A DNA stretch of 46,195 nucleotides from Alphaproteobacteria bacterium. Lineage in GTDB: Bacteria > Pseudomonadota > Alphaproteobacteria > Puniceispirillales > Puniceispirillaceae. The stretch's first letter is position 1. Each line of letters starts with the position of its first letter. Positions 26,225-44,921 of the stretch are shown here, piece by piece. The stretch lies in the NCBI GenBank assembly GCA_038139365.1, contig JAYOST010000002.1, positions 1-46,195 of the forward strand, in the 5' to 3' direction. A program made the position numbers and the translations under genes. The notes under the pieces are model-generated. The model searched no databases, was not told the origin of the DNA, and saw only the letters and a list, made by a program, of their open reading frames with translations.

Positions 26225-29173
26225 TCAGCGCATCAGCCCGTCAAGATGCCGCGCCAGATGCAGGGCCTCACGCCCGCTTCCATCCTCGATCTGGCAGCGG
26301 CAGGAGGTGCCGTCGGCGACAATCGCTGTTTCGGCATCGGCGGCGCGCACCGCCGGCAGCAGCGCGGCCTCGGCCATGCGAATCGACACATCATAGGTCT
26401 CGCGGCCATAGCCGAAGGCGCCGGCCATGCCACAGCAGGATGTCTCGATGGTCTCCACCTCGGCCCCGGCAAGGTCGCGCAGCACCACCTCGGCCGGCTT
26501 CACCAGATCGAAGGCCTTCTGGTGGCAATGCCCGTGAAGCTTCACCGTCCCACCGGCCTTCGACAGGGGCAGCTCTGGTCGGTCCGAGGCCAGCAATTCG
26601 GCAAAGGTCATCGTCGCCTCGGCCACTTCACTGGCCTGCGCGCTGGCCAGAAGCGCCGGAATCTCGTCACGAAGGGCAAGGGTACAGGACGGCTCCAGAC
26701 CAACAATTCGGACCCCGCTGCGCGCCAGCGGGTGGAGTGCCGCGACCAGCCGTTCGGCCTCGGCACGGGCGGCATCGACCATGCCCGCCGACAGATAGGT
26801 CCGCCCGCAACAGAGCGGCCGTCCCCCGGCCGGGGCCGGGCTGAACGCATCATATCCGGCGGCGCGAAGCACGCGCACTGCGGCGCGCAGGTTTTCCGGC
26901 TCAAAATAGCGGTTGAAGGTATCGGCGAACAGCACCACCGGCACCCCGTCGCCTGTCGGCGTATCCCCGATTTCATCAGCATCAAAGGCATTGGCATGCC
27001 AGCGCGGAAGCGCCCGCCTGGTGGTAAAGCCGGTTACCCGCGAAACCAGCGCGGCAAGGCCGGGAACATGCCGCCAGCCGGATTGTACAAGATTGCTTAG
27101 CCCTGCCAGCTTCGAGGCCAGCGGCGCATAGGCGGGAAGATACGCAATCAGCCTGTCATGAAGAGGAACGCCGCGCGCCGCGGCGCGCGCCGCGGTCACC
27201 TCGATTTTCATCCGCGCCATGTCGATGCCGACCGGGCATTCGCGCTTGCAGGCCTTGCAGGACACGCACAGCTTCATGGTCTCGGCCATTGCATCGCTGG
27301 TCAGCGCGTCGGGCCCGAGTTGACCCGAGATCGCCAGACGCAGTGTGTTGGCGCGGCCACGCACAGCATCGCGTTCATTGCGGGTGGCGCGGTAGGACGG
27401 GCACATCACCCCACCCTCGAGCTTGCGGCAGGCACCGTTGTTGTTGCACATCTCGACGGCGCCCTGCAGGCCACCTGCAGCCCCCGGCCATTCGGCCCAG
27501 TCAAGCAGGCTGTCGAAACTTTCCACCTCATATCCCGGTGCGAAGCGGAACAGGCTGCGGTCATCCATCTTCGGGGCGTCGGTGATCTTGCCGGGGTTGA
27601 ACATGCCCTTCGGGTCGAACATCGCCTTCACCTGCCGGAACAGATCCGGAAGCACCGGACCGAACATACGGTCATTGAATTCCGAGCGGACGATGCCGTC
27701 ACCATGCTCGCCTGAATGCGAGCCGCCGAATTCGCGCACCAGCGCGAAGGCCTCTTCGGCGATGGCGCGCATTGTTTCCGCTCCGGCCGCCTGTTTCATA
27801 TCAAGCACCGGGCGCACATGAAGGCAACCGACCGACGCATGCGCGTACCAGGTTCCCTTGGCATTGTGCTTGTCGAAGATCTTCGTCAGCCTGTCGGTAT
27901 ATTCTGCGAGGTCCTTCAACTCGACAGCGCAATCCTCAAGGAAGGAAACCGGCTTCGCCTCGTTCTTCATGCTCATCATGATGTTGAGGCCTGACTTGCG
28001 CCATTCCGCGATCCGCCCCTGCATCGCCGGGTCGATGGCATCAACCACGCCGCCACGCCACTCATCGCCCTTGTCCCAGCCAAAACCGAGATCGCCCATC
28101 ATGGCATGGAGCCGGCGAAGGCGGTGTTCGTTCTCCGCCATGTCATCCTCGGCGAACTCTACCAGCAGCAGCGCCGCCGGGTCGCCGCGCACCGCCTCTT
28201 CCACCGTCGGCTGGAAGATCGCGATGGATCGGGCCAGCTCGATCATTGTATCATCGACAAGCTCGACCGCCACCGGATCCAGCGTGACAAGATGCTGCGC
28301 CGCGTCCATGGCCTTGTAGAAGGTCGGGAAGTGGCAGATGCCCATGAGCTTCTTTGCCGGCAGCGGCGACAGCTTCAGCTCGATCGCGGTGCTGAAGGCA
28401 AGCGTGCCTTCCGAGCCGACAAGAAGATGCGACAGGTTGATGCCGTCACCGGCCACCCCGCCAGGGCGAAGCGCCATCGCATCCGGCATCAGCGCATCGA
28501 CATTATATCCCCCGACACGCCGCAGAACCTTGGGGAAGCCTTCCATGATATCGCCGGCATGCGCCGCGCCCATTTCCAGAAGACGCGGCTGTAAATCGGC
28601 AAGAAGCCCCGTCGCCGAGGTGATGCCGATATCGCCGAACCGCGCTGTCGAACCGTCTGACAGGATGGCGTCGATGGCGGTGACATTATCGCGCATCATG
28701 CCATAGCGGATGGAGCGCCCGCCGCAGCTGTTGTTGCCGGCCATACCCCCGATCGTGGCCCGGCTGGAGGTCGAGACATCAACCGGAAACCACAGCCCGT
28801 GCGGCTTCAACTGCCGGTTCAACTCGTCAAGAACGATCCCAGGCTCGACAAGACAACGCCGCGCCGCAACATCAAGCTCGAGAATCCGGTTCAGATGCCG
28901 ACTGGTATCGATGACCAGAGCATGGTTCACCGTCTGTCCACATTGCGAGGTGCCGCCGCCGCGCGGCAGGATGGCCATGCCTTCGGCCCGCGCGAAGGAC
29001 AGCGTTGCCTCGACATCCTCGAGGCTTTCCGGCACCACCACACCATGCGGCATCATCTGGTAGATCGAGGCATCAGTGGCATAGCGGCCGCGCGCGAAAT
29101 CATCGTCGAACAGGCTGCCACGAAGCTCGGCTTTCAGCGGGGCCAGAGAGGGGACGCGGATGTCATTTGGCAT
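26225..29173 (-). CDS. FAD-binding, 4Fe-4S and CCG-domain 2-hydroxyacid oxidoreductase (GlcD/GlcF-like fusion, YdiJ type)
   Basis: PRGGGTSQCGQ, GSEGTL, HASVGCLHVRP, GEHGDG, CNNNGAC, CVSCKACKRECP, LCCG and SCCG motifs. Confidence 0.92.
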   Translation of the reverse strand: MPNDIRVPSLAPLKAELRGSLFDDDFARGRYATDASIYQMMPHGVVVPESLEDVEATLSFARAEGMAILPRGGGTSQCGQTVNHALVIDTSRHLNRILELDVAARRCLVEPGIVLDELNRQLKPHGLWFPVDVSTSSRATIGGMAGNNSCGGRSIRYGMMRDNVTAIDAILSDGSTARFGDIGITSATGLLADLQPRLLEMGAAHAGDIMEGFPKVLRRVGGYNVDALMPDAMALRPGGVAGDGINLSHLLVGSEGTLAFSTAIELKLSPLPAKKLMGICHFPTFYKAMDAAQHLVTLDPVAVELVDDTMIELARSIAIFQPTVEEAVRGDPAALLLVEFAEDDMAENEHRLRRLHAMMGDLGFGWDKGDEWRGGVVDAIDPAMQGRIAEWRKSGLNIMMSMKNEAKPVSFLEDCAVELKDLAEYTDRLTKIFDKHNAKGTWYAHASVGCLHVRPVLDMKQAAGAETMRAIAEEAFALVREFGGSHSGEHGDGIVRSEFNDRMFGPVLPDLFRQVKAMFDPKGMFNPGKITDAPKMDDRSLFRFAPGYEVESFDSLLDWAEWPGAAGGLQGAVEMCNNNGACRKLEGGVMCPSYRATRNERDAVRGRANTLRLAISGQLGPDALTSDAMAETMKLCVSCKACKRECPVGIDMARMKIEVTAARAAARGVPLHDRLIAYLPAYAPLASKLAGLSNLVQSGWRHVPGLAALVSRVTGFTTRRALPRWHANAFDADEIGDTPTGDGVPVVLFADTFNRYFEPENLRAAVRVLRAAGYDAFSPAPAGGRPLCCGRTYLSAGMVDAARAEAERLVAALHPLARSGVRIVGLEPSCTLALRDEIPALLASAQASEVAEATMTFAELLASDRPELPLSKAGGTVKLHGHCHQKAFDLVKPAEVVLRDLAGAEVETIETSCCGMAGAFGYGRETYDVSIRMAEAALLPAVRAADAETAIVADGTSCRCQIEDGSGREALHLARHLDGLMR

Positions 29174-29270
29174 GAAACACTCGATGAAAAAAGGCTGTGG
29201 CCTGAACCGTTGGGCATAGCGTCGCGGTAGCGCGTTGGACAGTTGTCACCGTGACCCGAAAAATCTAGGT

Positions 29271-29284
29271 TATTTGGTATTCCA
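29271..29284 (+). promoter_or_regulatory. Putative GntR operator 1
   Basis: TATTTGGTATTCCA, between the divergent oxidoreductase and aminotransferase genes. Confidence 0.65.
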
Positions 29285-29308: not shown

Positions 29309-30493
29309 ATGAGTTCCCCATCCTATCAGGCCGGCCGGCATTTTCTTCAAATCCCGGGGCCATCCAACGTTCCAGACCGAATCCTGCGCGCCATGGATCA
29401 CCCGACCATCGATCACCGCGGCCCGGCCTTTGCCGAGCTAGGCAGGAAGTGCCTTGACGGGATGAAGACCATTTTCAAAACCGATACTGCGGTGATCATC
29501 TATCCGGCCTCCGGAACCGGCGCCTGGGAAGCGGCGCTGGCCAATCTTCTGGCTGAGGGCGACAAGGTGCTGATGGTGGAAACTGGCCATTTCGCGACCC
29601 TGTGGAAAAAAATGGCCGACAAGCTCGGCATTGTCACCGAATTCCTTGAGACCGACTGGCGGCGCGGCGTTGACCCGCAAGCCATCGAGGACAGGCTTCG
29701 TGCCGACAGCGGCGGGGACATCCGCGCTGTCTGCGTCGTTCACAACGAAACCTCGACCGGATCGACGTCACGCATTGGCGAGGTTCGCACCGCGATGGAC
29801 GCTGCCGGGCATGGCGCATTGCTGATGGTCGACACCATCTCCTCGCTTGCCTCGATCGACTACCGCCATGACGAGTGGGGAGTCGATGTCACTGTCTCGG
29901 GATCGCAGAAAGGGCTGATGCTGCCGCCAGGATTGTCTTTCAACGCGCTTTCCGAGCGCGCCATAGCCGAATCCGGGTCCGGCGGACTTCGCCGATCCTA
30001 CTGGGACTGGCAGGAACAGCTGGCAGCAAATGCCGGCGGGGCGTTTCCCTATACCCCGGCGACAAACCTTCTCTACGGTCTGGCCGAGGCCATCGACATG
30101 CTTCATGAGGAAGGTCTCGACAATGTCTTCGCCCGCCACGACCGGCATGCCGAGGCGACCCGCCGCGCCGTTCAGGCCTGGGGACTGGAAGTGCTGTGCC
30201 AGGAACCACGCGACTTCTCCAGCTCACTCACCGCGGTGCTTTTGCCGGAAGGGCATGACGCCGACGCCTTCCGCGCCGCCGTGCTGAAACATTTCGACAT
30301 GTCGCTTGGCAACGGCCTGTCGCGTCTTGCCGGCAAGGTCTTCCGGATCGGCCATCTTGGCGACTTCAATGACCTGATGCTGACCGGAACATTGAGCGGT
30401 GTTGAAATGGGACTTCGCGTTGCCGATGTGCCGCACCAGTCTGGCGGTGTCGGGGCCGCGATGCAGTATCTGGCAGAAAGCGCCGCGGCCTGA
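29309..30493 (+). CDS. Class V PLP aminotransferase (serine/alanine-glyoxylate type)
   Basis: LQIPGP, ASGTGAWEAA, VHNETSTG, VDTISS, GSQKGLMLPPG (PLP Lys) and FRIGHLG motifs. Confidence 0.92.
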   Translation: MSSPSYQAGRHFLQIPGPSNVPDRILRAMDHPTIDHRGPAFAELGRKCLDGMKTIFKTDTAVIIYPASGTGAWEAALANLLAEGDKVLMVETGHFATLWKKMADKLGIVTEFLETDWRRGVDPQAIEDRLRADSGGDIRAVCVVHNETSTGSTSRIGEVRTAMDAAGHGALLMVDTISSLASIDYRHDEWGVDVTVSGSQKGLMLPPGLSFNALSERAIAESGSGGLRRSYWDWQEQLAANAGGAFPYTPATNLLYGLAEAIDMLHEEGLDNVFARHDRHAEATRRAVQAWGLEVLCQEPRDFSSSLTAVLLPEGHDADAFRAAVLKHFDMSLGNGLSRLAGKVFRIGHLGDFNDLMLTGTLSGVEMGLRVADVPHQSGGVGAAMQYLAESAAA

Positions 30494-30519: not shown

Positions 30520-31323
30520 ATGAGTGAGGCTGTGAGCACCGACGACGAACTTCTCTACAGCGCCAAGGACGGCATCGGCCACATTGTGCTGAACAGGCCG
30601 CACCGCCGCAACGCGCTGACCTTCGGCATGTATGAGCAAATCAGGCAGATCTGCGCACGCGCCGGCACCGCCGATGATCCGGATGGGCTGAAAGTGCTGA
30701 TTTTCTCCGGCGGCGGCGATGCCGCCTTTGCCGCCGGCACCGACATCTCGCAATTCCGCACCTTCACCAAGGAAGACGCCATCAATTACGAAGAGATGGT
30801 CGACAAGGTGATGACAACCATCGAAGACTGCCGGATTCCCACCATCGCCGCGCTGAACGGGTTCTGCACCGGGGGCGGGGCGGCCATCGCCGCCGCTGTC
30901 GATCTTCGCATCGGCAGCCGTGACCTGAAGGTCGGTGCGCCCATCGCCCGCACCCTCGGCAATTGCCTTGCGATTGCCAATATCTACAGATTTGTGCGGT
31001 TGATTGGCGAGGCGAGGCTGAAATACATGCTCCTCACCGCTTCATTGATCGATGCTGAGGAAGCCGCCTCTGCCGGGTTCATCTCAGAACTTCTGGATGA
31101 CCGCGATGCGGTGCTGGCCCGCGCCGACGAGATGGCGCGCGGGATCACCGAACTGGCGCCGCTGACGCTTGATGCCACCATGCGCGGTATCCGCCGCCTG
31201 TCATCGGCCACACCGCTTCCCGACGATCACGATCTTGTCGAACAGACCTTCGGTAGTGCCGATTTCAAGGAAGGAATCTCCGCCTTTTTCGAGAAACGCA
31301 AGCCCGACTGGAAGGGCGTCTGA
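30520..31323 (+). CDS. Crotonase-fold (enoyl-CoA hydratase/isomerase family) protein 1
   Basis: LNRPHRRNAL, FAAGTDI, PTIAALNGFCTGGG and EGISAFFEKRKP motifs. Confidence 0.9.
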   Translation: MSEAVSTDDELLYSAKDGIGHIVLNRPHRRNALTFGMYEQIRQICARAGTADDPDGLKVLIFSGGGDAAFAAGTDISQFRTFTKEDAINYEEMVDKVMTTIEDCRIPTIAALNGFCTGGGAAIAAAVDLRIGSRDLKVGAPIARTLGNCLAIANIYRFVRLIGEARLKYMLLTASLIDAEEAASAGFISELLDDRDAVLARADEMARGITELAPLTLDATMRGIRRLSSATPLPDDHDLVEQTFGSADFKEGISAFFEKRKPDWKGV

Positions 31324-31383: not shown

Positions 31384-31411
31384 TTGCCTTCCTGTGAATT
31401 TGGTATACCAT
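31384..31411 (+). promoter_or_regulatory. Promoter overlapped by putative GntR operator 2
   Basis: TTGCCT-N16-TACCAT, overlapped by AATTTGGTATACCA (31397-31410, containing the perfect palindrome TGGTATACCA). Confidence 0.75.
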
Positions 31412-31456: not shown

Positions 31457-32881
31457 GTGGATTTTGCACATTATATCGGCGGCAACTGGGTTGCGGATTC
31501 GGATGTCACAACCAACCGCAATCCGGCGAATCAGGATGATGTGATCGGCACCTACGCGCGTGGTGGCGCGTCGCGGGTCGACGAGGCTGTGGCGGCGGCC
31601 ATGACGGCGCAGGATGACTGGGCCCATGCCAGCCCGCAGATTCGCCATGATGTTCTGGAGCGCGCCGGCGCGTTGATTGTCGAACGCAAGGACGAGCTTG
31701 GCAGGCTGCTGGCGCGGGAGGAGGGAAAGACCCTTGCCGAGGCAGTGGGCGAGACCATCCGCGCATCGCAGGTGTTCAAATTCTTCGCTGGCGAGGCGCT
31801 TCGCAACACCGGCGATGCCATCGCCTCGGTCCGTCCCGGTGTTGAGGTGATGATCGAGCGCGAGCCGGTCGGTGTGATCGGGCTGATCACGCCATGGAAT
31901 TTTCCGATCGCGATCCCCGCCTGGAAGCTTGCGCCGGCACTGGCCTTTGGCAACACGGTGGTGATGAAGCCGGCCGAGTTGACCCCGGGATGCGCCTGGG
32001 AACTTGCCAAGATTCTTGATGAGGCAGGCTGTCCTGCCGGCGTCTTCAATCTGGTGATGGGGCCGGGCTCACAGGTCGGCGCCCGCATTGTCGACCATCC
32101 TGACATCGCCGCTGTCAGCTTCACCGGGTCGGTGGCGACAGGCCGCCAGGTTGCGGTTGACTGTGCCGCCAGGGGCAAGAAGGTACAGCTCGAGATGGGT
32201 GGCAAGAACCCGATGGTCGTTGTCGATGACGCCGATCTCGATGTCGCTGTCGGCGCAGCGCTGAATGGCGCTTTCTTCTCGACCGGCCAGCGCTGCACCG
32301 CCTCATCGCGCCTGATCGTGACCGAAGGGATTCATGACGCTTTTCTCGACAGGCTGACCACCGCTGCCGCCGACCTTGTCGTTGGCGACCCGCTGGACGC
32401 GGCGACACAGATCGGCCCGGTTGTCGACCAGAGCCAACTTGACCAGAATCTGGGCTATCTGTCACTTGCCGCCGAGGAAGGGTGCGATGTGCGCGGCGGC
32501 GGTCTTGGCAATGGCAACGGCTTCTTCATGCATCCGGCTGTGCTGGCCGGCGCGACCAATGCCATGCGGGTCTCACGCGAGGAAATTTTTGGGCCGATCG
32601 CTTCGGTGATCAAGGTGGCGGATTATGACGAGGCGCTGGCCGTCGCCAATGACACCGAGTTTGGCCTGTCATCGGGAATCTGCACCAGCTCGCTGAAACT
32701 TGCCTCGCATTTCCGCAAACATGCCAAGGCCGGCATGGTGATGGTGAACCTTCCCACCGCCGGGGTTGATTATCATGTGCCCTTTGGCGGCCGCAAGGGA
32801 TCAAGCTATGGCCCGCGCGAGCAGGGAAGCTATGCCCGCGAATTCTACACCACTGTCAAGACAAGCTATATCGCCCCCTGA
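31457..32881 (+). CDS. NAD(P)-dependent aldehyde dehydrogenase, 2-oxoglutarate semialdehyde dehydrogenase-like
   Basis: ITPWNFP, FTGS, QLEMGGKNP (Glu), GQRCTA (Cys), EEIFGP and PFGG motifs; AGGAG RBS before a GTG start. Confidence 0.9.
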   Translation: MDFAHYIGGNWVADSDVTTNRNPANQDDVIGTYARGGASRVDEAVAAAMTAQDDWAHASPQIRHDVLERAGALIVERKDELGRLLAREEGKTLAEAVGETIRASQVFKFFAGEALRNTGDAIASVRPGVEVMIEREPVGVIGLITPWNFPIAIPAWKLAPALAFGNTVVMKPAELTPGCAWELAKILDEAGCPAGVFNLVMGPGSQVGARIVDHPDIAAVSFTGSVATGRQVAVDCAARGKKVQLEMGGKNPMVVVDDADLDVAVGAALNGAFFSTGQRCTASSRLIVTEGIHDAFLDRLTTAAADLVVGDPLDAATQIGPVVDQSQLDQNLGYLSLAAEEGCDVRGGGLGNGNGFFMHPAVLAGATNAMRVSREEIFGPIASVIKVADYDEALAVANDTEFGLSSGICTSSLKLASHFRKHAKAGMVMVNLPTAGVDYHVPFGGRKGSSYGPREQGSYAREFYTTVKTSYIAP

Positions 32882-32926: not shown

Positions 32927-33844
32927 ATGACGACCCGTCCCTATTCCGGCATCTGGCCGGTTGCGCCCACCCCGTTCACCGAGACCGGTGCCGTTGATGA
33001 TGATGGCATGCGACGGGTGCTCGACTGCATGATCGACCAGGGATGCGACGGCATCTGCATTCTGGCGAATTTTTCCGAACAGTTCCTGATTTCCGATGCC
33101 GAGCGGGCGCATCTGACGCGCCTGTGCCTGGAATATGTGGATGGCCGCGTGCCGGTGATCGTCACCATCAGCCATTTCGCCACTGACATCGCTGTCGCAC
33201 GGGCGAAAGAGGCGAAAGAGCTTGGCGCCGCCATCGTGATGATGATGGCGCCCTATCACGGCGCCCTTCTGAAAGGCAATGCCGCGCAGACATTCGAGCA
33301 GTTCGCCCGCGTCGGCGAGGTTGGCATTCCGATCATGATCCAGGACGCGCCTCTCTCAGGTGTCGATCTTCCGGTGCCGCTTCTGGCGCGCATGGCAAGC
33401 GAGATCGAGATGGTCAAGCTGTTCAAGCTCGAATCCGCCGGCACCGCCACCAAGATGCGGGCACTTCTGGCGGCGGCAGGTGACGCGGTGGAAGGCCCGT
33501 TCGATGGCGAGGAAGGCATCACCCTTCTCGCCGATCTTGACGCTGGTGCCAGCGGGTCGATGACATCAGCCCTGATCCCCGATCTGATCCGGCCAGTGAT
33601 AACCGCACATGCCGCGGGCGACCGAGACACGGCGGTGGCCGGCTATACCGCCGTGCTGCCGGTGATCAATCATGAAAACAGGCAGTGCGGATTCCGCGCG
33701 GCAAAGGCGGCGATGGTGGCAGGCGGGGTGATCAAATCCGATTTCTGCCGGCATCCGATCGATCCGCTCCCCGCCCCGACGCGTGACGAGCTTATCGGGT
33801 TGATGCGCCCGCTTGATCCGCTGGTGCTGCGCTGGGGGCAATGA
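32927..33844 (+). CDS. DHDPS-family protein, L-2-keto-3-deoxyarabonate dehydratase (AraD of the non-phosphorylative pathway)-like
   Basis: CILANFSEQF, PYHGA, IQDAP, FKLE (Schiff-base Lys), DGEE, INHENRQ and DPLVLRW match my recollection of Azospirillum L-KDA dehydratase. Start could be 32894. Confidence 0.82.
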   Translation: MTTRPYSGIWPVAPTPFTETGAVDDDGMRRVLDCMIDQGCDGICILANFSEQFLISDAERAHLTRLCLEYVDGRVPVIVTISHFATDIAVARAKEAKELGAAIVMMMAPYHGALLKGNAAQTFEQFARVGEVGIPIMIQDAPLSGVDLPVPLLARMASEIEMVKLFKLESAGTATKMRALLAAAGDAVEGPFDGEEGITLLADLDAGASGSMTSALIPDLIRPVITAHAAGDRDTAVAGYTAVLPVINHENRQCGFRAAKAAMVAGGVIKSDFCRHPIDPLPAPTRDELIGLMRPLDPLVLRWGQ

Positions 33845-34572
33845 CCATGGCGAAGACGCGCAGTCTGACATCACTTGTCGCCGACGGCGAAATCAAACCA
33901 AGCCAGCGGCGTTCGCTGAGCACTGATACAGCCGAGAAGGTCCGTGAACTGATCCTCCTAGAAAAGCTGCCACCCGGCATGCACATCCCCGAGCGTGACC
34001 TTGCCGAGGCACTCGGCATCAGCCGTACCCCGATGCGTGAGGCACTTCGCATTCTTGAAGCAGAGGGTCTTGTAGACCACACATCGACACGCCGGTCACG
34101 CGTCGCCAACCCGTCGGTCGAGGAGCTGTCGCAGAGCATGAAGGTTCTCGCCACACTGGAGGCACTTGGCGGCGAACTGGCGTGCAGCCATGCCAGCGAC
34201 AAGCAGCTTGAAGCGATCGAGAAGCTGAACAGACGCATGGTCGAGAAGAGCGACGAGCTCAGCTCGATTGATTTCTTCAAGACTGACATGGGTTTCCATG
34301 CCGCCATCGTCGCTGCCAGCGGCAATGCGGCGCTGATCGATACCCATTCGAAATATAACGCAAGGCTGTGGCGCGCCCGCTTCCTGTCGTCACGCCGCAA
34401 GCTTGGCCGCGCGACAACCCTGCAGCAGCATCAGGACATCACCGACGCCCTGCTGGCACGGAACGTCGAGGCCGCCGCCACCGCCATGCGCGCGCACATC
34501 GAGACCGCGATCACAAATCTGGCGGCCGGCCATAACGAAGAGGGCCGTGACGAAGAGGAGAGTACGGAATGA
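33841..34572 (+). CDS. GntR-family (FCD domain) transcriptional regulator
   Basis: LPPG..IPERDLAEALGISRTPMREAL..LEAEGLV winged HTH; FCD-type D.GFH, QH and M.AH residues. Confidence 0.93.
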   Translation: MTMAKTRSLTSLVADGEIKPSQRRSLSTDTAEKVRELILLEKLPPGMHIPERDLAEALGISRTPMREALRILEAEGLVDHTSTRRSRVANPSVEELSQSMKVLATLEALGGELACSHASDKQLEAIEKLNRRMVEKSDELSSIDFFKTDMGFHAAIVAASGNAALIDTHSKYNARLWRARFLSSRRKLGRATTLQQHQDITDALLARNVEAAATAMRAHIETAITNLAAGHNEEGRDEEESTE

Positions 34573-35597: not shown

Positions 35598-36722
35598 ATG
35601 AAAATCACCGCAATCCGTGCCCATGCCGTGAACCTGCCGGTCACGCTGGATATCACCACGCCGGTAAAGACCCCGTCGCATCAGGCCTGTGTCGTCGAGA
35701 TCGAAACCGATGCCGGCATCACCGGACATGGCATCACCTCGATCGGACCGGCGGTGCCGATCAAGGCAGCCATCGACGCGGTGGCCACGCCGCAGATCAT
35801 CGGCATGGATCCGATGAACAATGACCGCATCTGGGACAAGCTATACTGGGCACTGGTGCCGCGCGGCCAGACCGGCATCGGCATGCACGCCATCGCTGCC
35901 ATCGATGTCGCCATCTGGGACATCAGGGGAAAGGCGCTTGGCCAGCCCATCTGGCGTCTTCTTGGCGGCGCGCGCCAGCGCTGCCCGGTCTACACCACCT
36001 TCGGGTTTGGATATTACGAGACGGACGAGCTGCCCCGCGCCGCAGAGGCCTGGCGCAAGCGCGGATTCTCGCGGCTGAAGATGACGGTTGGCAATTCCGC
36101 GCTGCAACGCCGCGACGAGCCACGCCTGCTGAGTGACGTGATCATTGAGGATGTGGCCCGCGTCGCCGGCGTCCGCGCCGCTGCCGGCGATGATGCCGAG
36201 CTGTTCATCGATGCGAATTGTAGCCTCGATTACTTTCATGCCGTTGAGTTGGCCGCCGCGCTGGCACCCTATCACATCAGCTTCTTCGAGGAGCCGATCA
36301 CACAGAATGATGTTCGCCAGATGGCCGAACTTCGCCACCAGACCGGCATGCGCGTCGCCTGCGGCCAGAATGAAGGACAACCCTATCGATTCCGTGACAT
36401 GCTGATCGCCGGCGCGGTCGACATCATCCAGCCGAATGTGGTCATCAGCGGTGGGTTCACCCAGTGCCAGAAAATCGCGGCGCTGGCGTCAGGGTTCAAT
36501 GTCGGCATCGATAATGGTGGGGCCTGGCCCTTTTTCAACGCGCATCTCCAGGCCGGCGTCGGCAATGGCGGGCTCGTTGAATGGCATTATGCCTCAGTCG
36601 AGGCATGCCGTCTGATCTATGACGATCTGCCCGAGGCGAAGGATGGCTGGTTCGAAATGAGCGAGGCGCCCGGTCTCGGCTTTGCGCTGAACACCGGACG
36701 CCTCGAAAAGTTCGTCATCTAG
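35598..36722 (+). CDS. Mandelate racemase / enolase superfamily protein, divergent active site
   Basis: AIDVAIWDIRGKALGQPIWRLLGG, IDAN, FEEP and PGLG motifs. Confidence 0.9.
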   Translation: MKITAIRAHAVNLPVTLDITTPVKTPSHQACVVEIETDAGITGHGITSIGPAVPIKAAIDAVATPQIIGMDPMNNDRIWDKLYWALVPRGQTGIGMHAIAAIDVAIWDIRGKALGQPIWRLLGGARQRCPVYTTFGFGYYETDELPRAAEAWRKRGFSRLKMTVGNSALQRRDEPRLLSDVIIEDVARVAGVRAAAGDDAELFIDANCSLDYFHAVELAAALAPYHISFFEEPITQNDVRQMAELRHQTGMRVACGQNEGQPYRFRDMLIAGAVDIIQPNVVISGGFTQCQKIAALASGFNVGIDNGGAWPFFNAHLQAGVGNGGLVEWHYASVEACRLIYDDLPEAKDGWFEMSEAPGLGFALNTGRLEKFVI

Positions 36723-38695: not shown

Positions 38696-38716
38696 CAAAT
38701 TTTCCCCCGGAGATCA

Positions 38717-39914: not shown

Positions 39915-39928
39915 CGGTATACCAAATT
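39915..39928 (-). promoter_or_regulatory. Putative GntR operator 3
   Basis: Minus strand AATTTGGTATACCG, upstream of tctC. Confidence 0.7.
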
Positions 39929-40004: not shown

Positions 40005-40847
40005 TCAGTCGACGCTGACACCCGCCTCGCGGGCGCGCTCCACCATGTAGTCGCGGCCAGCCAGCATATCCTCGATGGTGCCGAAGCCATTGGTGTAATG
40101 CCCGGCATAGCCGGTGGCCTCGATCTTCTTGAACATCGCACCGAAATCGATCGTGCCCTCACCGGGAAGCTGATGGATTTCGTAGGATCCGTTATTATCG
40201 GCAAGCCGCACCTCGTGGCACAGGCTGAAATCCATCGCGTCGACAAAGGCCTCGATCCCGACCCCGGGAAGGAAATGCGCATGGTTCGCTGTAAAGGACC
40301 AGCGCACCGCCGGATTGTCGATCTCGCGGAAGAAATGCATGCATTCTGCCGGCGTCACCGGCATGTAGTTCACCTCGGCAAGCACAGGCTCCCAGTTCAG
40401 ATTCTCGAGCAGAAGCAAGACCCCGCGCGCAGCGGCGTAATCACCAATCCGTTTCAGCCTGTCAATGGCCGCCTGCATTCTGATCTTCTTGCAGGCTGTG
40501 AAGTGATAGCCACCATGGACAACGATCCATTTCGCCCCGAGCTTTGGCGCCAGATCGATATAGGCCTTCATGTAGGCATCAACCGCATCGCGGCAGAAAG
40601 GCGAGATTTCAGCTACATTCACGCCCGACAAGGTGTGCAGCCCGAAATTGATCCCGCTTGTCTCGAGAAGCTCGCGCACCCCGGCACATCGCGCCTCGTC
40701 GAAAGTCTCGAGCGCATTCGGCGCGATGTCGGTCTGCGCATCGATGAATTCGACACCATTCTCAGCCGCCCAGCGAATGCCATCCTCGAGCGGCAGCCGC
40801 CGCCCAAGATCAATCCCGATACGCTGCTTCAATGTCTTGCCGGCCAT
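40005..40847 (-). CDS. Xylose isomerase-like TIM barrel (sugar phosphate isomerase/epimerase family)
   Basis: LGAKWIVVHGG, LLLEN and H.LPGEGTIDF motifs; GGGAGG RBS. Confidence 0.85.
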   Translation of the reverse strand: MAGKTLKQRIGIDLGRRLPLEDGIRWAAENGVEFIDAQTDIAPNALETFDEARCAGVRELLETSGINFGLHTLSGVNVAEISPFCRDAVDAYMKAYIDLAPKLGAKWIVVHGGYHFTACKKIRMQAAIDRLKRIGDYAAARGVLLLLENLNWEPVLAEVNYMPVTPAECMHFFREIDNPAVRWSFTANHAHFLPGVGIEAFVDAMDFSLCHEVRLADNNGSYEIHQLPGEGTIDFGAMFKKIEATGYAGHYTNGFGTIEDMLAGRDYMVERAREAGVSVD

Positions 40848-40886: not shown

Positions 40887-41699
40887 TCAGCTGCCGGTAA
40901 AATTCGGCTTTCGCTTTTCCATGAAGGCGCGGCGGCCCTCGATATAGTCCTGACTGGCGAAACAGGCCTTCACCATCGCGTCCAGCGCCGCCAGATCCCG
41001 CTCTGATTCGTCGCCCTGAATGGATTGTGTGATGGCTTTTACCGACTCGATGGTCAACGGCGCGTTCTCAGAAATCCGCCGCGCATAATCATCGACATAG
41101 GCGGCCAGCATATGCGGTGCCAGCACCCTGTTCACCAGACCCATGTCATAGGCTTCCGCAGCGCTGAACTGGCGCGCGGTGAAGAAGATTTCCTTGACCA
41201 TCGCCGGCCCGACAAGGTGGGCGAGGCGGCGGATGCCTTCGTAGCCATAGCCGACGCCAAGCTTCGCCGCCGGCACGGCAAAACGGCTCTTGTCCTCGCA
41301 TAGGCGGATATCGCAGGCCACCGCCAGCCCCATGCCGCCCCCGATGCAATATCCCTGAATCACCGCGATGGTCGGCTTTGGAAAGGTGAACACCGCGTCA
41401 TAGAAGGTCTTACTGGCCTCTGCGTATCTGCTGACATCCTCGGCGCTGGACCTTTCCTTCTCGAATTTCGAGATGTCCGCTCCCGAGGCAAAGGCCTTGC
41501 CGCCGGCACCACGGATCACCAGAAGGCGCGCTTCAGGATCGGCGGCCATGCGCGTCACCTCGGCCGCGCCAGCCTGATACATCGCCATGGAGATGGCGTT
41601 GTGACGCGCGGGATTGTTGATCACCACATGGCCCACGCGGTCGACAATACCGGATAGCAGCTTGCCTTCGGCATGCGCGGTAAGTTGATCGAATTTCAT
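40887..41699 (-). CDS. Crotonase-fold protein 2
   Basis: NNPARHNAIS, FASGADI, PTIAVIQGYCIGGG and EGRRAFMEKRKP motifs. Confidence 0.9.
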   Translation of the reverse strand: MKFDQLTAHAEGKLLSGIVDRVGHVVINNPARHNAISMAMYQAGAAEVTRMAADPEARLLVIRGAGGKAFASGADISKFEKERSSAEDVSRYAEASKTFYDAVFTFPKPTIAVIQGYCIGGGMGLAVACDIRLCEDKSRFAVPAAKLGVGYGYEGIRRLAHLVGPAMVKEIFFTARQFSAAEAYDMGLVNRVLAPHMLAAYVDDYARRISENAPLTIESVKAITQSIQGDESERDLAALDAMVKACFASQDYIEGRRAFMEKRKPNFTGS

Positions 41700-42880
41700 G
41701 TTACGCCCCGTGCGGCGAAGTCGCTTATATCTGCTTCGGAATAGCCAAACTCGGCCAGAATTTCGGCCGTATGCTGACCCTTGGTCGGGGGCGGGCGGCG
41801 GATGTCCGACGCCGAACGGCTCATCTTGATGGGCTGGCCGACGATCTGCGACGGGCCGCGCTCCTGGCTGTTCACATCACGGGCAATGCCCAGATGCTGC
41901 ACCTGCGGATTCTCGAACACCTGCTGGATGTTGTTGATCTCGCCGCAGGGAACGCCGATTTCCGCCAACCTCTCGACCCAGTAGGCGGTGCTCTTCTGCG
42001 AGGTGTTCTCGTTGATGATGGCGTTCAGCGGCTTGCGGTTCTTGCTGCGCGAGGGTTGGTCAGCATAATCTTCATGATCCATCCGTTCATCGCCAAGCTC
42101 GCCCTTCAGGCGAAGCCAGATATGCTGGCCGGCGCAGGCGATGTTGATGAAGCCATCGGCGGTGGCGAAGACGCCTGTGGGGATCGAGGTCGGATGGTCA
42201 TTGCCGGCCTGCTGCGGCACGGTGCCATCCATCAGCCAGCGCGCCGCCTGGAAATCCAGCATCGCGATCTGCGCCTGCAGCAGTGACGTCTGCACCCATT
42301 GGCCTTCGCCGGTCTTCTCGCGCCCGAGAAGTGCCAGAAGCACCCCCTGCGCAGCAAAGCCACCGGCGGTCAGGTCGGCGATCGGAATGCCGACGCGCAT
42401 CGGACCTTCACCCGGGGCGCCGGTGATCGACATCAGCCCGCCCATGCCCTGGGCGATCTGGTCAAAGCCGGGACGCCCGGCCAGCGGACCATCCTGGCCA
42501 AAACCGGAGATCGAAGCATAGACGATGCCGGGGTTCAGCGCGCGAAGCGTCTCGTAATCGATGCCAAGGCGGAACTTCACATCTGGGCGGTAATTCTCAA
42601 CCACCACATCGGCGCTCTCGGCCATCTTCTTGAAAATCGCGACACCCTCCGGATCCTTCAGATTGAGGATCATCGAGCGCTTGTTGCGGTGCAGGTTCTG
42701 GAAATCCGATCCTTCGCGCGACCCGCCCATGTCAGACCCGGCGGTGTCCGGGTTCTCGATCTTGATGACATTCGCCCCCCAATCCGCCAGTTGACGCACA
42801 CATGTAGGACCGGAACGAACGCGTGTCAGATCGAGAACGGTGTAATGGGACAGGATGTCACTGGCTGGTTCAAATGGCAT
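41696..42880 (-). CDS. CaiB/BaiF (family III) CoA-transferase
   Basis: VLDLTRVRSGP, HRNKRS, DVVVENYRP, SISGFGQDGP and IADLTAG (catalytic Asp) motifs. Confidence 0.93.
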   Translation of the reverse strand: MPFEPASDILSHYTVLDLTRVRSGPTCVRQLADWGANVIKIENPDTAGSDMGGSREGSDFQNLHRNKRSMILNLKDPEGVAIFKKMAESADVVVENYRPDVKFRLGIDYETLRALNPGIVYASISGFGQDGPLAGRPGFDQIAQGMGGLMSITGAPGEGPMRVGIPIADLTAGGFAAQGVLLALLGREKTGEGQWVQTSLLQAQIAMLDFQAARWLMDGTVPQQAGNDHPTSIPTGVFATADGFINIACAGQHIWLRLKGELGDERMDHEDYADQPSRSKNRKPLNAIINENTSQKSTAYWVERLAEIGVPCGEINNIQQVFENPQVQHLGIARDVNSQERGPSQIVGQPIKMSRSASDIRRPPPTKGQHTAEILAEFGYSEADISDFAARGVT

Positions 42881-42942: not shown

Positions 42943-42956
42943 TTGTATACCAAATT
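42943..42956 (-). promoter_or_regulatory. Putative GntR operator 4
   Basis: Minus strand AATTTGGTATACAA, between the divergent CoA-transferase and sulfatase-remnant/matB units. Confidence 0.7.
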
Positions 42957-42992
42957 AAAGTACGATCGCTTTTTTGAAGTCAATTCAAATCT

Positions 42993-43035: not shown

Positions 43036-43048
43036 GGATTCCTTGCCG

Positions 43049-43366
43049 ATGAAGACATTTTTCCTTCTGTTCGACAGCCTGAACCAGTCGGCGCTCGGCA
43101 CCTCTGGCGGGCAGAACCCAACACCACATTTCGACAGTCTGGCGGTCCGCTCGACAGTGTTCGATACACATTATGCCAGGTCGCTTGCCTGTACGCCCGC
43201 ACGCGCCGATGCCAAACGCGCGCCGCGACATGCAGACCGGGCGGCTTTGCGGATAGCCGCACTGTGCTGTATGATCTGGCCGCCGACCCGCGGCGACGCA
43301 ATCAGCGCCGAAATGGCGGCACATGAGGCACCGCCGGAATTGTATGACCGTTTTCACCTGACCTGA
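43049..43366 (+). pseudogene. Internally deleted, frameshifted formylglycine-type sulfatase remnant
   Basis: Fragments in three frames: MKTFFLLFDSLN...TPHFD...SLACTPAR, RRDMQTGRL, TVLYDLAADP and MAAHEAPPELYDRF. Confidence 0.82.
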
Positions 43367-43415
43367 CAATTGCCCGCCCAGCTGGGCGCCCTTCCCGCGA
43401 GCAGGACCATCACCG

Positions 43416-44921
43416 ATGACGAATTACCTTTATGACGGCGTCTTTGCGCCCCATGCTGACAGCGACAGGACGTTCCTGCACACCGCCGATGGTGAAATCA
43501 GCTTTTCTGAGTTCACCGCGCTGACCGACCGGATTGCGGCAATGCTTGTGGCGGCGGGACTCGCCCCCGGCGACAGGCTGGCGGTTCAGGCCGACAAGTC
43601 GGTGATGCTGTTCGCGCTGTATGCGGCGACGGTCAAGGCTGGCGGCGTCTACCTGCCGCTGAACACCGGCTACACCGCTGCGGAACTCGACTATTTTCTT
43701 GGTGACGCGAAGCCGCGGATTGTTGTCGTCTCCACCAGGGCCGAGGCGGCTGTCGCCCCGATCGCAGACCGCATCGGCGCGGCGATGATGACACTGGAGG
43801 CTGATGAAAGCGGCAGCCTTCGCGAGACCGCGATGGCGCATGCCGGGCCGTTCGCCGCTGTGCCGCGCGGCCCGGAAGACCTGGCGGCGATCCTTTACAC
43901 CAGCGGCACCACCGGCCGCTCGAAAGGCGCGAAACTGTGTCATCGCAACCTTCGCTCGAACGCCGAGGTGCTGCGCGACTACTGGCGCTTCACATCCGAC
44001 GATGTGCTGCTTCACATGCTGCCGATCTATCACACGCACGGTCTGTTCGTGGCCAGCAATCTGCTGGCAATGGTCGGCGGTTCGATGATCTTCCTGCCGA
44101 AATATTCGGCCGATCTGGCGCTGGAATGGATGCCAAAGGCAACCTCGATGATGGGCGTGCCGACCTTCTACACGCGGCTTCTCGACCATGAGGGTTTCAC
44201 CCGTGAGGCGAGCGCGCATATGCGGCTGTTCATTTCCGGATCAGCGCCGCTTCTGGCCGAAACCCACCGCCAGTTCGAGGACCGCACCGGCAAGGCCATT
44301 CTTGAGCGCTATGGCATGACAGAAACCAATATGAGCACCTCGAACCCGTTTGAGGGCGACCGCCGCGCCGGCACTGTCGGCTTTGCGCTGCCAGGCGTGG
44401 AGATCCGCATCGCCGATGCCCAGACCGGCGCCGCACTTCCGGATGGCGAGATCGGCATCATCGAGCTTCGCGGCGACAACGTCTTTCTCGGCTATTGGGA
44501 CATGCCGGAAAAGACCGCCGAATCCTTCCGCGATGACGGGTTCTTCATCACCGGTGACATGGCGGTCCGCGACTCTGACGGCTATATCAGCATCGTCGGG
44601 CGCGACAAGGACCTGATCATCTCCGGTGGGCTGAATGTCTATCCAAAAGAGGTGGAGGGCATGATCGACGCTGTCGAGGGTGTCCTGGAAAGCGCCGTGA
44701 TCGGCATCCCACACCGTGATTTCGGCGAGGCGGTGGTGGCAGTGATCGTGCGCAGTGACGAGAACCTCGAAGCATCGAGCATCGAAGCGGCACTGGCAGA
44801 TCAGCTGGCGAAATTCAAACAGCCGAAGGCGGTGCTCTTCACCGAGGCGCTGCCGCGCAACAGCATGGGCAAGGTTCAGAAAGCCGAATTGCGAAAGGCG
44901 CATGCCGGCCTTTTCACCTGA
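43416..44921 (+). CDS. matB: Malonyl-CoA synthetase (MatB)-like acyl-CoA ligase
   Basis: YTSGTTGRSKG, LPIYHTHGLFVA, MGVPTFYTRL, ERYGMTET and LPRNSMGKVQK motifs. Confidence 0.85.
   Translation: MTNYLYDGVFAPHADSDRTFLHTADGEISFSEFTALTDRIAAMLVAAGLAPGDRLAVQADKSVMLFALYAATVKAGGVYLPLNTGYTAAELDYFLGDAKPRIVVVSTRAEAAVAPIADRIGAAMMTLEADESGSLRETAMAHAGPFAAVPRGPEDLAAILYTSGTTGRSKGAKLCHRNLRSNAEVLRDYWRFTSDDVLLHMLPIYHTHGLFVASNLLAMVGGSMIFLPKYSADLALEWMPKATSMMGVPTFYTRLLDHEGFTREASAHMRLFISGSAPLLAETHRQFEDRTGKAILERYGMTETNMSTSNPFEGDRRAGTVGFALPGVEIRIADAQTGAALPDGEIGIIELRGDNVFLGYWDMPEKTAESFRDDGFFITGDMAVRDSDGYISIVGRDKDLIISGGLNVYPKEVEGMIDAVEGVLESAVIGIPHRDFGEAVVAVIVRSDENLEASSIEAALADQLAKFKQPKAVLFTEALPRNSMGKVQKAELRKAHAGLFT

What the first reader, a model, noticed from the sequence alone, without database searches (positions are those of the whole stretch)
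26225..44921. ~19-kb single-regulator organic-acid catabolic cluster that matches no pathway I recognise
Seen: about six transcription units on both strands share an operator-like motif and encode TctABC uptake, an enolase-superfamily enzyme, AraD-like dehydratase, aldehyde dehydrogenase, PdxA-fold enzyme, TIM barrel, two crotonase folds, CoA-transferase, MatB-like ligase, FAD/Fe-S oxidoreductase and class V aminotransferase. Established: AraD plus KGSA dehydrogenase form the lower non-phosphorylative pentonate route to 2-oxoglutarate. The cluster has no sugar dehydrogenase, lactonase, IlvD-type dehydratase or kinase, and it adds a CoA-dependent arm. Inference: the substrate is an imported carboxylate (sugar acid or small hydroxy-dicarboxylate) degraded by an undescribed route. 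Five enzymes have altered catalytic residues.
Basis: partly seen in the sequence, partly recalled or inferred. Interest (0 to 1): 0.85.

Follow-up and report, generated by a model that had tools for sequence, protein, structure and literature searches.

The report
Marine regulon for vitamin-C breakdown acids
A conserved gene cluster with a shared operator-like motif in SAR116 marine bacteria likely imports branched acids left when vitamin C decays; about half of it matches a known route to 2-oxoglutarate, and the other half is a set of uncharacterised enzymes predicted to decarboxylate related hydroxymalonate-type acids.

Summary
The cluster and its operator are real: four TGGTATACCA sites serve six transcription units (chance 0.2), and gene order is kept across SAR116 genera. 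'No known pathway' is only half right. The PdxA-fold enzyme is of the type found in bacterial L-ascorbate clusters (13 of 13 plasmid hits at >=50% identity lie beside L-lyxonate dehydratase). The 'missing' dehydratase, LyxD, lies just past the finding (45879-46193, cut by the contig end), under the same operator in relatives. PdxA, LyxD, AraD and KGSA dehydrogenase likely convert 2-carboxy-L-lyxonate to 2-oxoglutarate. The upstream mutase was not found in 96 SAR116 genomes, so these cells likely scavenge the abiotic rearrangement product. The rest is uncharacterised: a TIM barrel, an enolase-fold enzyme whose closest outside relatives sit beside arylmalonate decarboxylase, two glutamate-less crotonases with CoA transferase and MatB, an FAD/Fe-S dehydrogenase and an aminotransferase. 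My inference is CoA-dependent decarboxylation of tartronate-type acids (about 0.35-0.4). The scan reported this cluster before on another genome (e1-3895334), with a similar core reading. No biochemistry or expression data support it yet.

The parts
26225..29173 (-). FAD-linked oxidase + 4Fe-4S/CCG fusion; likely a 2-hydroxy-acid dehydrogenase (glycolate/D-lactate/D-2-HG type)
   Evidence: PF01565, PF02913, Fer4, CCG; YdiJ 519 bits, below cut-off 1350; paired with the aminotransferase in Limimaricola
29275..29284 (.). operator-like site 1 (divergent FAD/aminotransferase promoter)
29309..30493 (+). class V aminotransferase, likely glyoxylate-accepting (AGT/SGAT-like)
   Evidence: BhcA 446 bits, below cut-off 650; PLP-Lys motif GSQKG present
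30520..31323 (+). crotonase-fold enzyme PRK06144 (ECH1), oxyanion-hole motifs kept, no catalytic Glu
   Evidence: 325 bits, cut-off 272; motifs
31401..31410 (.). operator-like site 2 (perfect palindrome) upstream of the ALDH-araD-gntR-pdxA-eno operon
31457..32881 (+). aldehyde dehydrogenase, likely alpha-ketoglutaric semialdehyde dehydrogenase
   Evidence: best hits KGSA DH 513/770 and 2,5-dioxovalerate DH 510/750, below cut-offs; start with SD at 31457
32927..33844 (+). L-2-keto-3-deoxypentonate (L-KDA) dehydratase, AraD
   Evidence: PDB 7C0C/3FKK, E 4.5e-104, Schiff-base FKLE motif
33841..34572 (+). GntR/FCD regulator, likely binder of the motif
   Evidence: 50% identical to the GntR of the Qingshengfaniella tct-lyxD-araD-gntR-pdxA operon, which carries the same motif
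34569..35573 (+). PdxA-fold enzyme without the GHTE phosphate motif; likely 2-carboxy-L-lyxonate decarboxylase
   Evidence: neighbourhoods
35598..36722 (+). enolase-superfamily enzyme of an uncharacterised subfamily (KMT, GQNE, QPN, NGG); predicted epimerase/dehydratase or decarboxylase
   Evidence: beside arylmalonate decarboxylase in L049 and L142
36737..39743 (-). TctA (36737-38227), TctB (38240-38698), TctC (38769-39743) carboxylate transporter
39915..39924 (.). operator-like site 3 upstream of tctC
40005..40847 (-). TIM barrel of the D-tagatose-3-epimerase fold with three putative metal ligands replaced; predicted lactonase/isomerase upstream of PdxA
   Evidence: in a TIM-pdxA-lyxD-araD-tct operon in G042
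40887..41699 (-). crotonase-fold enzyme PRK06127 (ECH2), both catalytic Glu absent
   Evidence: 355 bits, cut-off 291; alignment
41696..42880 (-). class III CoA transferase, catalytic Asp motif (IADL) present
42943..42952 (.). operator-like site 4 (divergent CoA transferase / sulfatase-matB promoter)
43049..43360 (+). sulfatase remnant with an internal deletion of about 1.1 kb
   Evidence: junction bridged by contigs in 4 of 4 runs laid
43416..44921 (+). malonyl-CoA synthase (MatB)
   Evidence: NF005702 759 bits, cut-off 558
44937..45845 (-). EamA transporter, downstream of lyxD on the same strand
   Evidence: synteny
45879..46193 (-). 3' end (104 aa) of L-lyxonate dehydratase LyxD, cut by the contig end
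   Evidence: 91% identical to full-length L024 protein, which hits PDB 3SQS/3STP at E about 1e-231; operator upstream in G084, G085, G021

Best explanation
The cluster is likely one GntR regulon that imports 2-carboxy-L-lyxonate and related hydroxymalonate-type acids left by vitamin C decay, likely burns the C6 acid through a known four-step route to 2-oxoglutarate, and is predicted to decarboxylate smaller tartronate-type acids through a CoA cycle. Arm 1 (homology plus synteny; about 0.75): TctABC takes up 2-carboxy-L-lyxonate (= 2-carboxy-L-threo-pentonate, a substituted tartronate that forms without enzymes from 2,3-diketo-L-gulonate). The PdxA-fold enzyme decarboxylates it to L-lyxonate, LyxD dehydrates that to L-2-keto-3-deoxypentonate, AraD makes 2,5-dioxopentanoate, and the aldehyde dehydrogenase makes 2-oxoglutarate. 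Accessory steps (inferred, about 0.3 each): the TIM barrel opens or interconverts the 2-carboxy-pentonolactones in place of the missing amidohydrolase/mutase. The enolase-fold enzyme handles the other decarboxylation product (L-xylonate) or stands in for LyxD where LyxD is absent. Arm 2 (inferred, about 0.35-0.4): MatB primes a malonate-type acid that has no 3-OH for the PdxA chemistry (tartronate, or its methyl/hydroxymethyl derivative). A glutamate-less crotonase decarboxylates the CoA ester using its oxyanion hole, and the CoA transferase passes CoA to the next molecule. The released 2-hydroxy acid (glycolate, lactate or glycerate) is oxidised by the FAD/Fe-S enzyme and transaminated to glycine, alanine or serine. 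Shown here: genes, motif, synteny, residue changes. Inferred: every substrate.
For: (a) All 13 plasmid-collection PdxA hits at >=50% identity (H1-H12, H17; 40 of 135 rows seen) lie within 2.5 kb of a LyxD hit; only 4 of the 27 rows below 50% do. (b) Those loci carry the gene set recalled for the ascorbate route: cytochrome b561 + SMP-30 lactonase + YncE propeller + PdxA + LyxD + KDP dehydratase in Sphingomonas; propeller + amidohydrolase in Paraburkholderia; propeller + SMP-30 in Ruegeria pomeroyi. Lower-route-only versions exist (Paracoccus albus; Qingshengfaniella). (c) They share the window PdxA's altered motifs (DE in place of GHTE; TVQGG; TPAHGT). (d) LyxD is at the cluster end and has the operator 40-55 bp upstream in G084, G085 and G021. 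(e) The same motif precedes the Qingshengfaniella operon and the lyxD|CoA-transferase divergent promoter in a Granulosicoccaceae locus, so the arms are linked under this motif in more than one lineage. (f) TIM sits directly upstream of PdxA in G042 (TIM-PdxA-LyxD-AraD-TctCBA) and in L028/L040 (TIM-PdxA-CoAT-ECH2-Tct). (g) A propeller mutase homologue was not found in 96 SAR116 genomes; no close homologue of the lactonase was found (best 37% identity; 0 of 15 in g3, 0 of 3 in g13). PMC11066805 (passages) says DKG rearranges non-oxidatively to 2-carboxy-L-pentonate and two lactones, which slowly yield L-lyxonate and L-xylonate. (h) Malonate theme: MatB is over its cut-off; MatB-GntR|CoAT-ECH2-thioesterase modules occur in Roseivivax and Octadecabacter; both crotonases lack the hydratase glutamates; the two closest non-SAR116 enolase-fold relatives with context in which I found it (57%, 49%) lie in clusters with arylmalonate decarboxylase and TctA. 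(i) ECH1 relatives lie near the aminotransferase in 4 of 11 class-level loci, with FAD/Fe-S + aminotransferase in Limimaricola and with glcDEF in Caballeronia, which points to glycolate/glyoxylate.
Against: No enzyme was assayed. I could not compare the PdxA directly with the characterised C. necator H16 protein (paper not held), so the link rests on neighbourhoods and recall. LyxD was not found in 15 of 15 g3 and 3 of 3 g13 genomes, and 2 of 2 g9 genomes have PdxA + AraD with neither LyxD nor the enolase-fold gene (they hold 4-6 other MR-family genes). G093 (97% complete) lacks AraD. The aldehyde dehydrogenase is missing from the cluster in several g3/g9/g13 loci and scores below the KGSA cut-off. 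CoAT-ECH2 is a widespread pair (CoAT >=50% next to ECH2 in 16 of 20 loci; ECH2 in 73 of 351 class genomes), mostly without PdxA, LyxD or MatB (MatB >=50% in 1 of 20), so it may serve an unrelated acid. Other enolase-fold relatives (L066, L072, L073, L143-L145; 37-52%) show no arylmalonate decarboxylase nearby. A canonical malonyl-CoA decarboxylase family gene exists elsewhere in 77 of 96 SAR116 genomes, so MatB may simply serve malonate. The sulfatase in 18 of 33 loci is not explained by unsulfated ascorbate debris. The motif is a generic GntR/FadR-type palindrome (recalled), and genome-wide 1-mismatch counts did not exceed the reversed control in 4 of 5 genomes.
Confidence: 0.55

Rival explanations
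1. Arm 1 is as described, but the CoA arm is a separate module for other small acids that arrive with it (oxalate or oxalyl-threonate from oxidative ascorbate cleavage, plain malonate, tartrate-type acids), with glyoxylate as the common end point.
For: The CoA transferase is class III, related to formyl-CoA:oxalate and dicarboxylate CoA transferases. Oxalyl-threonate, oxalate, threonate and tartrate are ascorbate products (PMC6225978 passages). An L-threonate dehydrogenase lies about 5 kb past MatB in G008. ECH1 sits with tartrate dehydrogenase and glcDEF in Caballeronia. MatA is present elsewhere.
Against: No oxalyl-CoA decarboxylase or reductase was seen in any locus mapped; the Frc and oxalate-transferase models score far below cut-off. 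This reading gives the two crotonases no role.
Confidence: 0.2
2. One linear, undescribed pathway for a single larger substrate, for example a sulfated branched sugar acid of algal origin that is desulfated and split into a C5 part (to 2-oxoglutarate) and a C2/C3 part (to glycine).
For: One operator covers all units. Gene order is fixed in several genera at different chromosomal sites. A sulfatase precedes matB in 18 of 33 loci. Only one uptake system is present.
Against: The sulfatase is deleted here and absent in g6. The modules occur alone elsewhere. The enolase-fold gene, AraD, ALDH and LyxD are each lost in some carriers.
Confidence: 0.13
3. The PdxA-fold enzyme acts on a different branched or hydroxylated acid that also funnels to an L-pentonate, and the ascorbate link is incidental.
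For: Identity to the ascorbate-type PdxAs is only 51-62%. No upper-pathway gene lies in the cluster. LyxD is absent from many carriers.
Against: The active-site motifs are nearly identical to those of the ascorbate-cluster proteins, and the GntR, motif and araD-gntR-pdxA order match the Qingshengfaniella lyxonate operon.
Confidence: 0.12

Closest known systems
L-ascorbate catabolic pathway of Cupriavidus necator (Ralstonia eutropha) H16, Stack et al. 2020 JACS 142:1657 (citation seen in PMC11066805; content recalled, paper not held)
   Same: PdxA-family decarboxylase of the non-phosphate type, LyxD, a KDP dehydratase and KGSA dehydrogenase to 2-oxoglutarate; Tct/TRAP uptake in related loci.
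   Different: No cytochrome b561 oxidase, gluconolactonase, propeller mutase or amidohydrolase lactonase in the cluster; adds a TIM barrel, a new enolase-fold subfamily, the CoA arm, FAD/Fe-S enzyme, aminotransferase and (in relatives) a sulfatase.
L-lyxonate pathway of Pseudomonas aeruginosa PAO1 / Labrenzia aggregata, Ghasempur et al. 2014 (citation seen in PMC6372532 and mention in PMC6336799; details and the LyxD label for PDB 3STP recalled)
   Same: LyxD orthologue (E about 1e-231 to 3STP/3SQS for the full-length relative) and KGSA dehydrogenase.
   Different: The KDP dehydratase is of the DapA/AraD type rather than the FAH type; LyxD is dispensable in several SAR116 genera.
Non-phosphorylative L-arabinose route II of Azospirillum brasilense (AraD, AraE; PMC6336799 passages)
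   Same: L-KDP dehydratase (PDB 7C0C/3FKK) and KGSA dehydrogenase.
   Different: No sugar dehydrogenase, lactonase or IlvD-type arabinonate dehydratase; entry is likely through a C6 branched diacid.
Malonate use by MatB + MatA, and crotonase-fold acyl-CoA decarboxylases such as E. coli methylmalonyl-CoA decarboxylase (recalled)
   Same: MatB ligase; crotonase fold with oxyanion-hole motifs and without hydratase glutamates.
   Different: No MatA in the cluster; a class III CoA transferase and two distinct crotonase subfamilies (PRK06127, PRK06144) with no characterised member found.
Arylmalonate decarboxylase gene clusters (PMC4996985, abstract and passages)
   Same: MR/MLE gene plus TTT transporter; the paper reports an MR/MLE gene in 61% of AMDase loci, and the window's enolase-fold protein has relatives in two such loci.
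   Different: No AMDase here; PdxA-type and CoA-type enzymes would do the decarboxylation. I did not test whether the paper's MR/MLE genes are all of this subfamily.

Membership tests
L-ascorbate pathway (Stack 2020) | PdxA-family 2-carboxy-L-lyxonate decarboxylase | tested here: inconclusive
L-ascorbate pathway (Stack 2020) | L-lyxonate dehydratase LyxD | tested here: met
   fragment 45879-46193, 91% to L024 protein, which matches 3SQS/3STP; absent in g3, g9, g13 relatives
L-ascorbate pathway (Stack 2020) | 2-keto-3-deoxy-L-pentonate dehydratase | tested here: met
   AraD type, E 4.5e-104 to 7C0C
L-ascorbate pathway (Stack 2020) | KGSA dehydrogenase | tested here: inconclusive
   best NCBIfam hits but below cut-offs
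L-ascorbate pathway (Stack 2020) | WD40/propeller diketogulonate mutase | tested here: not met
   0 of 96 family genomes with the R. pomeroyi query (no positive control inside that search; the query hits the Sphingomonas protein at 44%)
L-ascorbate pathway (Stack 2020) | amidohydrolase carboxy-lyxonolactonase | tested here: not met
   none in the cluster; only 29-37% homologues in 27 of 96 genomes, none in G000, g3 or g13
L-ascorbate pathway (Stack 2020) | cytochrome b561 oxidase and gluconolactonase | tested here: inconclusive
   not in any SAR116 locus mapped; in G000 (57% complete) no b561 hit and one 27% SMP-30 hit; not searched family-wide
L-ascorbate pathway (Stack 2020) | growth on or induction by ascorbate products | not testable with these tools
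   needs culture or RNA data
PdxA / PdxA2 phospho-tetronate dehydrogenases | GHTE phosphate-binding motif and a partner kinase | tested here: not met
   HEDE in place of GHTE; no kinase in the cluster; all PdxA models below cut-off
Enoyl-CoA hydratase | two catalytic glutamates | tested here: not met
   ECH2 has G and A at the GGGxE and QPE positions; ECH1 motifs likewise lack Glu
Crotonase-fold acyl-CoA decarboxylase | decarboxylation of a malonyl-type CoA ester | not testable with these tools
   PRK11423 model scores 165 and 110 bits, cut-off 257; the fold allows it, activity untested
Mandelate-racemase-subgroup acid-sugar dehydratases | Asp/Glu/Glu metal ligands and His-Asp dyad | tested here: not met
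   against LyxD structures E->Q, D->N, H->N; conserved in the subfamily; residue roles recalled
D-tagatose 3-epimerase / AP_endonuc_2 metal-dependent epimerases | Glu, Asp, His, Glu metal site | tested here: not met
   fold met (TM about 0.77) but D->T, H->R, E->N against MJ1311, conserved in the family; residue roles recalled
Malonyl-CoA synthase MatB | NF005702 above cut-off | tested here: met
   759 bits, cut-off 558
BhcA / beta-hydroxyaspartate cycle | BhcA above cut-off and bhcBCD nearby | tested here: not met
   446 bits, cut-off 650; no bhcBCD among the cluster genes

The most novel reading that the evidence does not exclude
SAR116 bacteria run a dedicated regulon for hydroxymalonate (tartronate-type) acids made by abiotic rearrangement of ascorbate and other oxidised sugars in sunlit seawater. 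It would use the NAD+-cycling PdxA enzyme for 2-carboxy-L-lyxonate and a natural tartronyl-CoA decarboxylation cycle (MatB, CoA transferase, glutamate-less crotonase, then glycolate dehydrogenase and glyoxylate aminotransferase), the reverse of the engineered tartronyl-CoA pathway. A metal-free TIM-barrel lactonase and a base-less enolase-fold enzyme would be new catalysts, and the latter's link to arylmalonate decarboxylase loci would point to tartronate-type acids as the unknown natural substrates of AMDase.
Probability: 0.25. Interest if true: 0.8.

Novelty: new variant of a known kind. Interest (0 to 1): 0.5.

Why it matters
It names a testable carbon source (abiotic vitamin C debris) for a widespread surface-ocean clade, in about a third of the 96 family genomes searched. 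It corrects likely misannotations (PdxA, 'L-rhamnonate dehydratase', 'enoyl-CoA hydratase'). It also puts four uncharacterised enzyme subfamilies (PRK06127, PRK06144, the GQNE/NGG enolase fold, the metal-less TIM barrel) into a context with a short list of candidate substrates. If the CoA arm acts on tartronate, it would be a natural counterpart of a synthetic pathway and a lead on the natural substrate of AMDase, which PMC4996985 (2016) calls unidentified.

Tried and rejected
Primary paper: Stack 2020 is not held. Nine literature searches gave no listing that describes this SAR116 cluster, a natural tartronyl-CoA decarboxylase, or a characterised PRK06127/PRK06144 member. Most subscription papers are outside the library and I opened no supplements, so this does not show absence from print. 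Expression: no RNA holder listed among 22 runs; no evidence either way. Sigma-70 promoter and terminator scans were not clearly above shuffles (8 vs mean 4.9; 20 vs mean 14.3). PDB sequence and Foldseek searches found no close solved relative for the enolase-fold protein (<=30% identity) or the TIM barrel (<=19% by Foldseek); the ESM Atlas gave only unnamed AP_endonuc_2 clusters. The TIM protein search returned 3668 hits, but the 120 shown were all 76-91% relatives with generic names. TIM was found in 0 of 400 phylum-level genomes. Rejected: assembly artefact for the sulfatase deletion (bridged in 4 runs from 4 studies, one of which may be the source sample); decay as the cause of the altered residues (conserved); PdxA2/threonate-kinase route; beta-hydroxyaspartate cycle; beta-oxidation by the crotonases. 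A strict 'enolase-fold gene replaces LyxD' rule is weakened by g9 (neither gene) and g1 (both). No complex prediction was sent, since no binding claim is made.

Full report
Setting. The window is contig C2 of a 57%-complete assembly. Loci with 95% identical proteins are titled Puniceispirillaceae/SAR116, and the DNA is held by seawater and estuary metagenomes (20 of 22 listed runs, 9 studies). GC is flat at about 0.60-0.63 across the cluster.

Observation. The palindrome TGGTATACCA occurs four times with at most one mismatch (29275, 31401, 39915, 42943) against 0.20 expected; these are 4 of the 8 such sites in the assembly. Two lie in divergent promoters, so six units are covered. The same sites recur at equivalent positions in relatives; in G021, 4 of 5 genome-wide matches to a 12-mer are in the cluster, though in 4 of 5 genomes the total count did not exceed the reversed control. 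Binding by the cluster's GntR is inferred, not shown.

Conservation. Of 33 loci found with the TIM barrel, 28 have CoA transferase and ECH2 directly upstream, 2 have them just downstream behind PdxA, and 3 lack them. The order FAD|AGT-ECH1-(ALDH)-(AraD-GntR)-PdxA-(ENO)|TctABC|TIM-ECH2-CoAT|(sulfatase)-MatB is kept in 10 of 11 genomes fetched, in three genera and three chromosomal settings, and in genera g6 and g9. The enolase-fold gene matched in 31 of 96 family genomes (one a 39% paralogue) and AraD in 38 of 96 (a few outside the cluster).

The missed parts. Past the finding's end lie EamA and the last 104 codons of a protein 91% identical to a full-length relative that matches PDB 3SQS/3STP at E about 1e-231. 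I recall 3STP as the L-lyxonate dehydratase of Ghasempur 2014 (citation only seen). In G084, G085 and G021 the operator lies 40-55 bp upstream of this gene. Between the CoA transferase and matB, 18 of 33 loci hold a sulfatase; the window keeps only its ends, with about 1.1 kb deleted, and contigs of 4 of 4 runs laid bridge the junction.

Arm 1 is a known route. The PdxA-fold protein lacks the GHTE motif of the phospho-substrate enzymes. Its 13 plasmid-collection relatives at >=50% identity all lie within 2.5 kb of LyxD, against 4 of 27 listed rows below 50% (40 of 135 rows seen). These loci include Sphingomonas (cytochrome b561, SMP-30 lactonase, YncE propeller, PdxA, LyxD, AraD1), Paraburkholderia (PdxA, LyxD, AraD, propeller, amidohydrolase), Ruegeria pomeroyi and Variovorax. 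That is the gene set I recall for the L-ascorbate pathway of Stack 2020, in which a PdxA-family enzyme decarboxylates 2-carboxy-L-lyxonate to L-lyxonate. The paper is not held; I saw only its citation and one sentence about it in PMC11066805. The window's altered motifs are shared by these proteins. Qingshengfaniella has tctCBA-lyxD-araD-gntR-pdxA with a 50% identical GntR and the same motif. AraD matches the L-KDA dehydratase 7C0C at E 4.5e-104; a homologue is reported as strictly L-KDP-specific (PMC6336799 passages), and L-lyxonate gives the same L-KDP because only C4 stays chiral (established chemistry). The aldehyde dehydrogenase hits KGSA dehydrogenase best but below cut-off.

No upper pathway. 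A propeller mutase query found 0 of 96 family genomes and the lactonase query only 29-37% homologues, none in G000, g3 or g13. PMC11066805 and PMC6225978 (passages) state that diketogulonate rearranges non-oxidatively to 2-carboxy-L-threo-pentonate (synonym 2-carboxy-L-lyxonate) and two lactones, which slowly give L-lyxonate and L-xylonate. Scavenging of these products fits a cluster that starts at the decarboxylase; lower-route-only operons also exist in Paracoccus albus. That phytoplankton supply ascorbate is my background knowledge and was not checked.

The uncharacterised parts. The TIM barrel folds like D-tagatose 3-epimerases (pLDDT 90.6; TM about 0.77) but has T, R and N where MJ1311 has D, H and E, conserved in its family. 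It is rare (0 of 400 phylum genomes). It precedes PdxA in G042 (TIM-PdxA-LyxD-AraD-Tct) and L028/L040, which places it where a lactonase or mutase would stand, but it also occurs with CoAT-ECH2-Tct alone in Roseomonas. The enolase-fold protein (pLDDT 96.3; no solved relative above 30%) lacks the third acidic ligand and the His-Asp pair of LyxD. It is present without LyxD in g3 and g13 (LyxD 0 of 15 and 0 of 3), absent where LyxD is present in g6 and G042, present with it in g1, and both are absent in g9, so substitution is suggested but not required. Its relatives at 57% (G496) and 49% (Ponticoccus) lie with arylmalonate decarboxylase above cut-off and TctA; six other relatives examined (37-52%) do not. 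PMC4996985 (abstract, passages) reports an MR/MLE gene in 61% of AMDase loci and an unidentified natural substrate.

The CoA arm is itself two modules. CoAT (>=50%) lies beside ECH2 in 16 of 20 class-level loci, with a TctA at 57-59% in 5 of 20 (I fetched 20 of the higher-scoring of 84 matches). MatB-GntR|CoAT-ECH2-thioesterase-Tct occurs in Roseivivax and Octadecabacter. ECH1 lies near the aminotransferase in 4 of 11 loci and near a different CoA transferase in 4 of 11 (11 of 12 outside matches fetched), with the FAD/Fe-S gene in Limimaricola and with glcDEF in Caballeronia. ECH2 matched 73 and ECH1 14 of 351 class genomes (each tally includes one hit from G682, flagged unpublished). Both crotonases keep the oxyanion-hole motifs and lack the hydratase glutamates. 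With MatB and a CoA transferase, the simplest chemistry is decarboxylation of a malonate-type CoA ester with CoA recycling, giving a 2-hydroxy acid for the FAD/Fe-S enzyme and a 2-oxo acid for the aminotransferase. 2-Carboxy-L-lyxonate is itself a substituted tartronate, so PdxA, MatB/crotonase and the AMDase-linked enolase fold point to one substrate class. This is inference. Against it: MatA-family genes exist elsewhere in 77 of 96 genomes, MatB rarely accompanies CoAT-ECH2 outside SAR116, and the sulfatase is unexplained.

Earlier scan notes. I recorded my reading before looking (notes). Note e1-3895334 describes the same cluster on another genome with the same core reading, and e1-5268537 the same PdxA assignment. 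They are AI notes and add no independent support. The few lines shown of them do not mention the TIM-PdxA operons, the AMDase link or the tartronate hypothesis.

Verdict. A real, conserved cluster with a shared operator-like motif; a new variant of the ascorbate/lyxonate route with several uncharacterised enzyme subfamilies attached. Interest 0.5; 0.8 if the tartronyl-CoA reading holds (probability about 0.25).

Noticed in passing
window 43049-43360 (+); intact in L013:3239-4738: Sulfatase upstream of matB is reduced to a remnant by an internal deletion in this population, intact in 18 of 33 related loci; its substrate is unexplained.
   Followed up: partly
window 16666-21142 (+): ORFs that look like glycine cleavage genes gcvT/H/P (recognised from sequence by recall, no family scan) lie about 5 kb from the cluster in genus g1; handy for glycine from the aminotransferase but not conserved in other genera.
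   Followed up: no
window 23794-25932 (-): Subtilisin-like protease ORF flanking the cluster, with an AT-rich spacer at about 25930-26220; seen only in the g1 loci mapped.
   Followed up: no
L067:165-1055 (G008): L-threonate dehydrogenase above cut-off plus an enolase-fold gene about 5 kb beyond matB; threonate is another ascorbate product.
   Followed up: partly
L025:7253-8296, also L026, L027, L033, L034, L053, L088: Fatty-acid-desaturase-family gene (PF00487) inserted between the TIM barrel and tctC in some g3/g9 genomes.
   Followed up: no
L084:179-4971 and L086:828-5515 (G023, G020): A second TIM-barrel paralogue (53-54%) with a TRAP transporter and another enolase-fold gene is inserted between the FAD/Fe-S and aminotransferase genes; a similar trio occurs in L044.
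   Followed up: no
L142:8294-16843 (G496) and L049:5003-14282: Arylmalonate decarboxylase loci with the same enolase-fold subfamily and a Tct transporter; G496 also has a class V aminotransferase.
   Followed up: partly
G000 contigs C48 and C19: Two versions of the same region (malonyl-CoA decarboxylase and neighbours) at about 75% nucleotide identity; possible bin mixing or old duplication.
   Followed up: no
L046:9602-20727 (Ruegeria pomeroyi DSS-3 megaplasmid, SPO_RS21090-21040): An ascorbate-type cluster (TRAP, propeller, PdxA, LyxD, AraD, ALDH, SMP-30) under generic or wrong labels in a genetically tractable marine model.
   Followed up: partly
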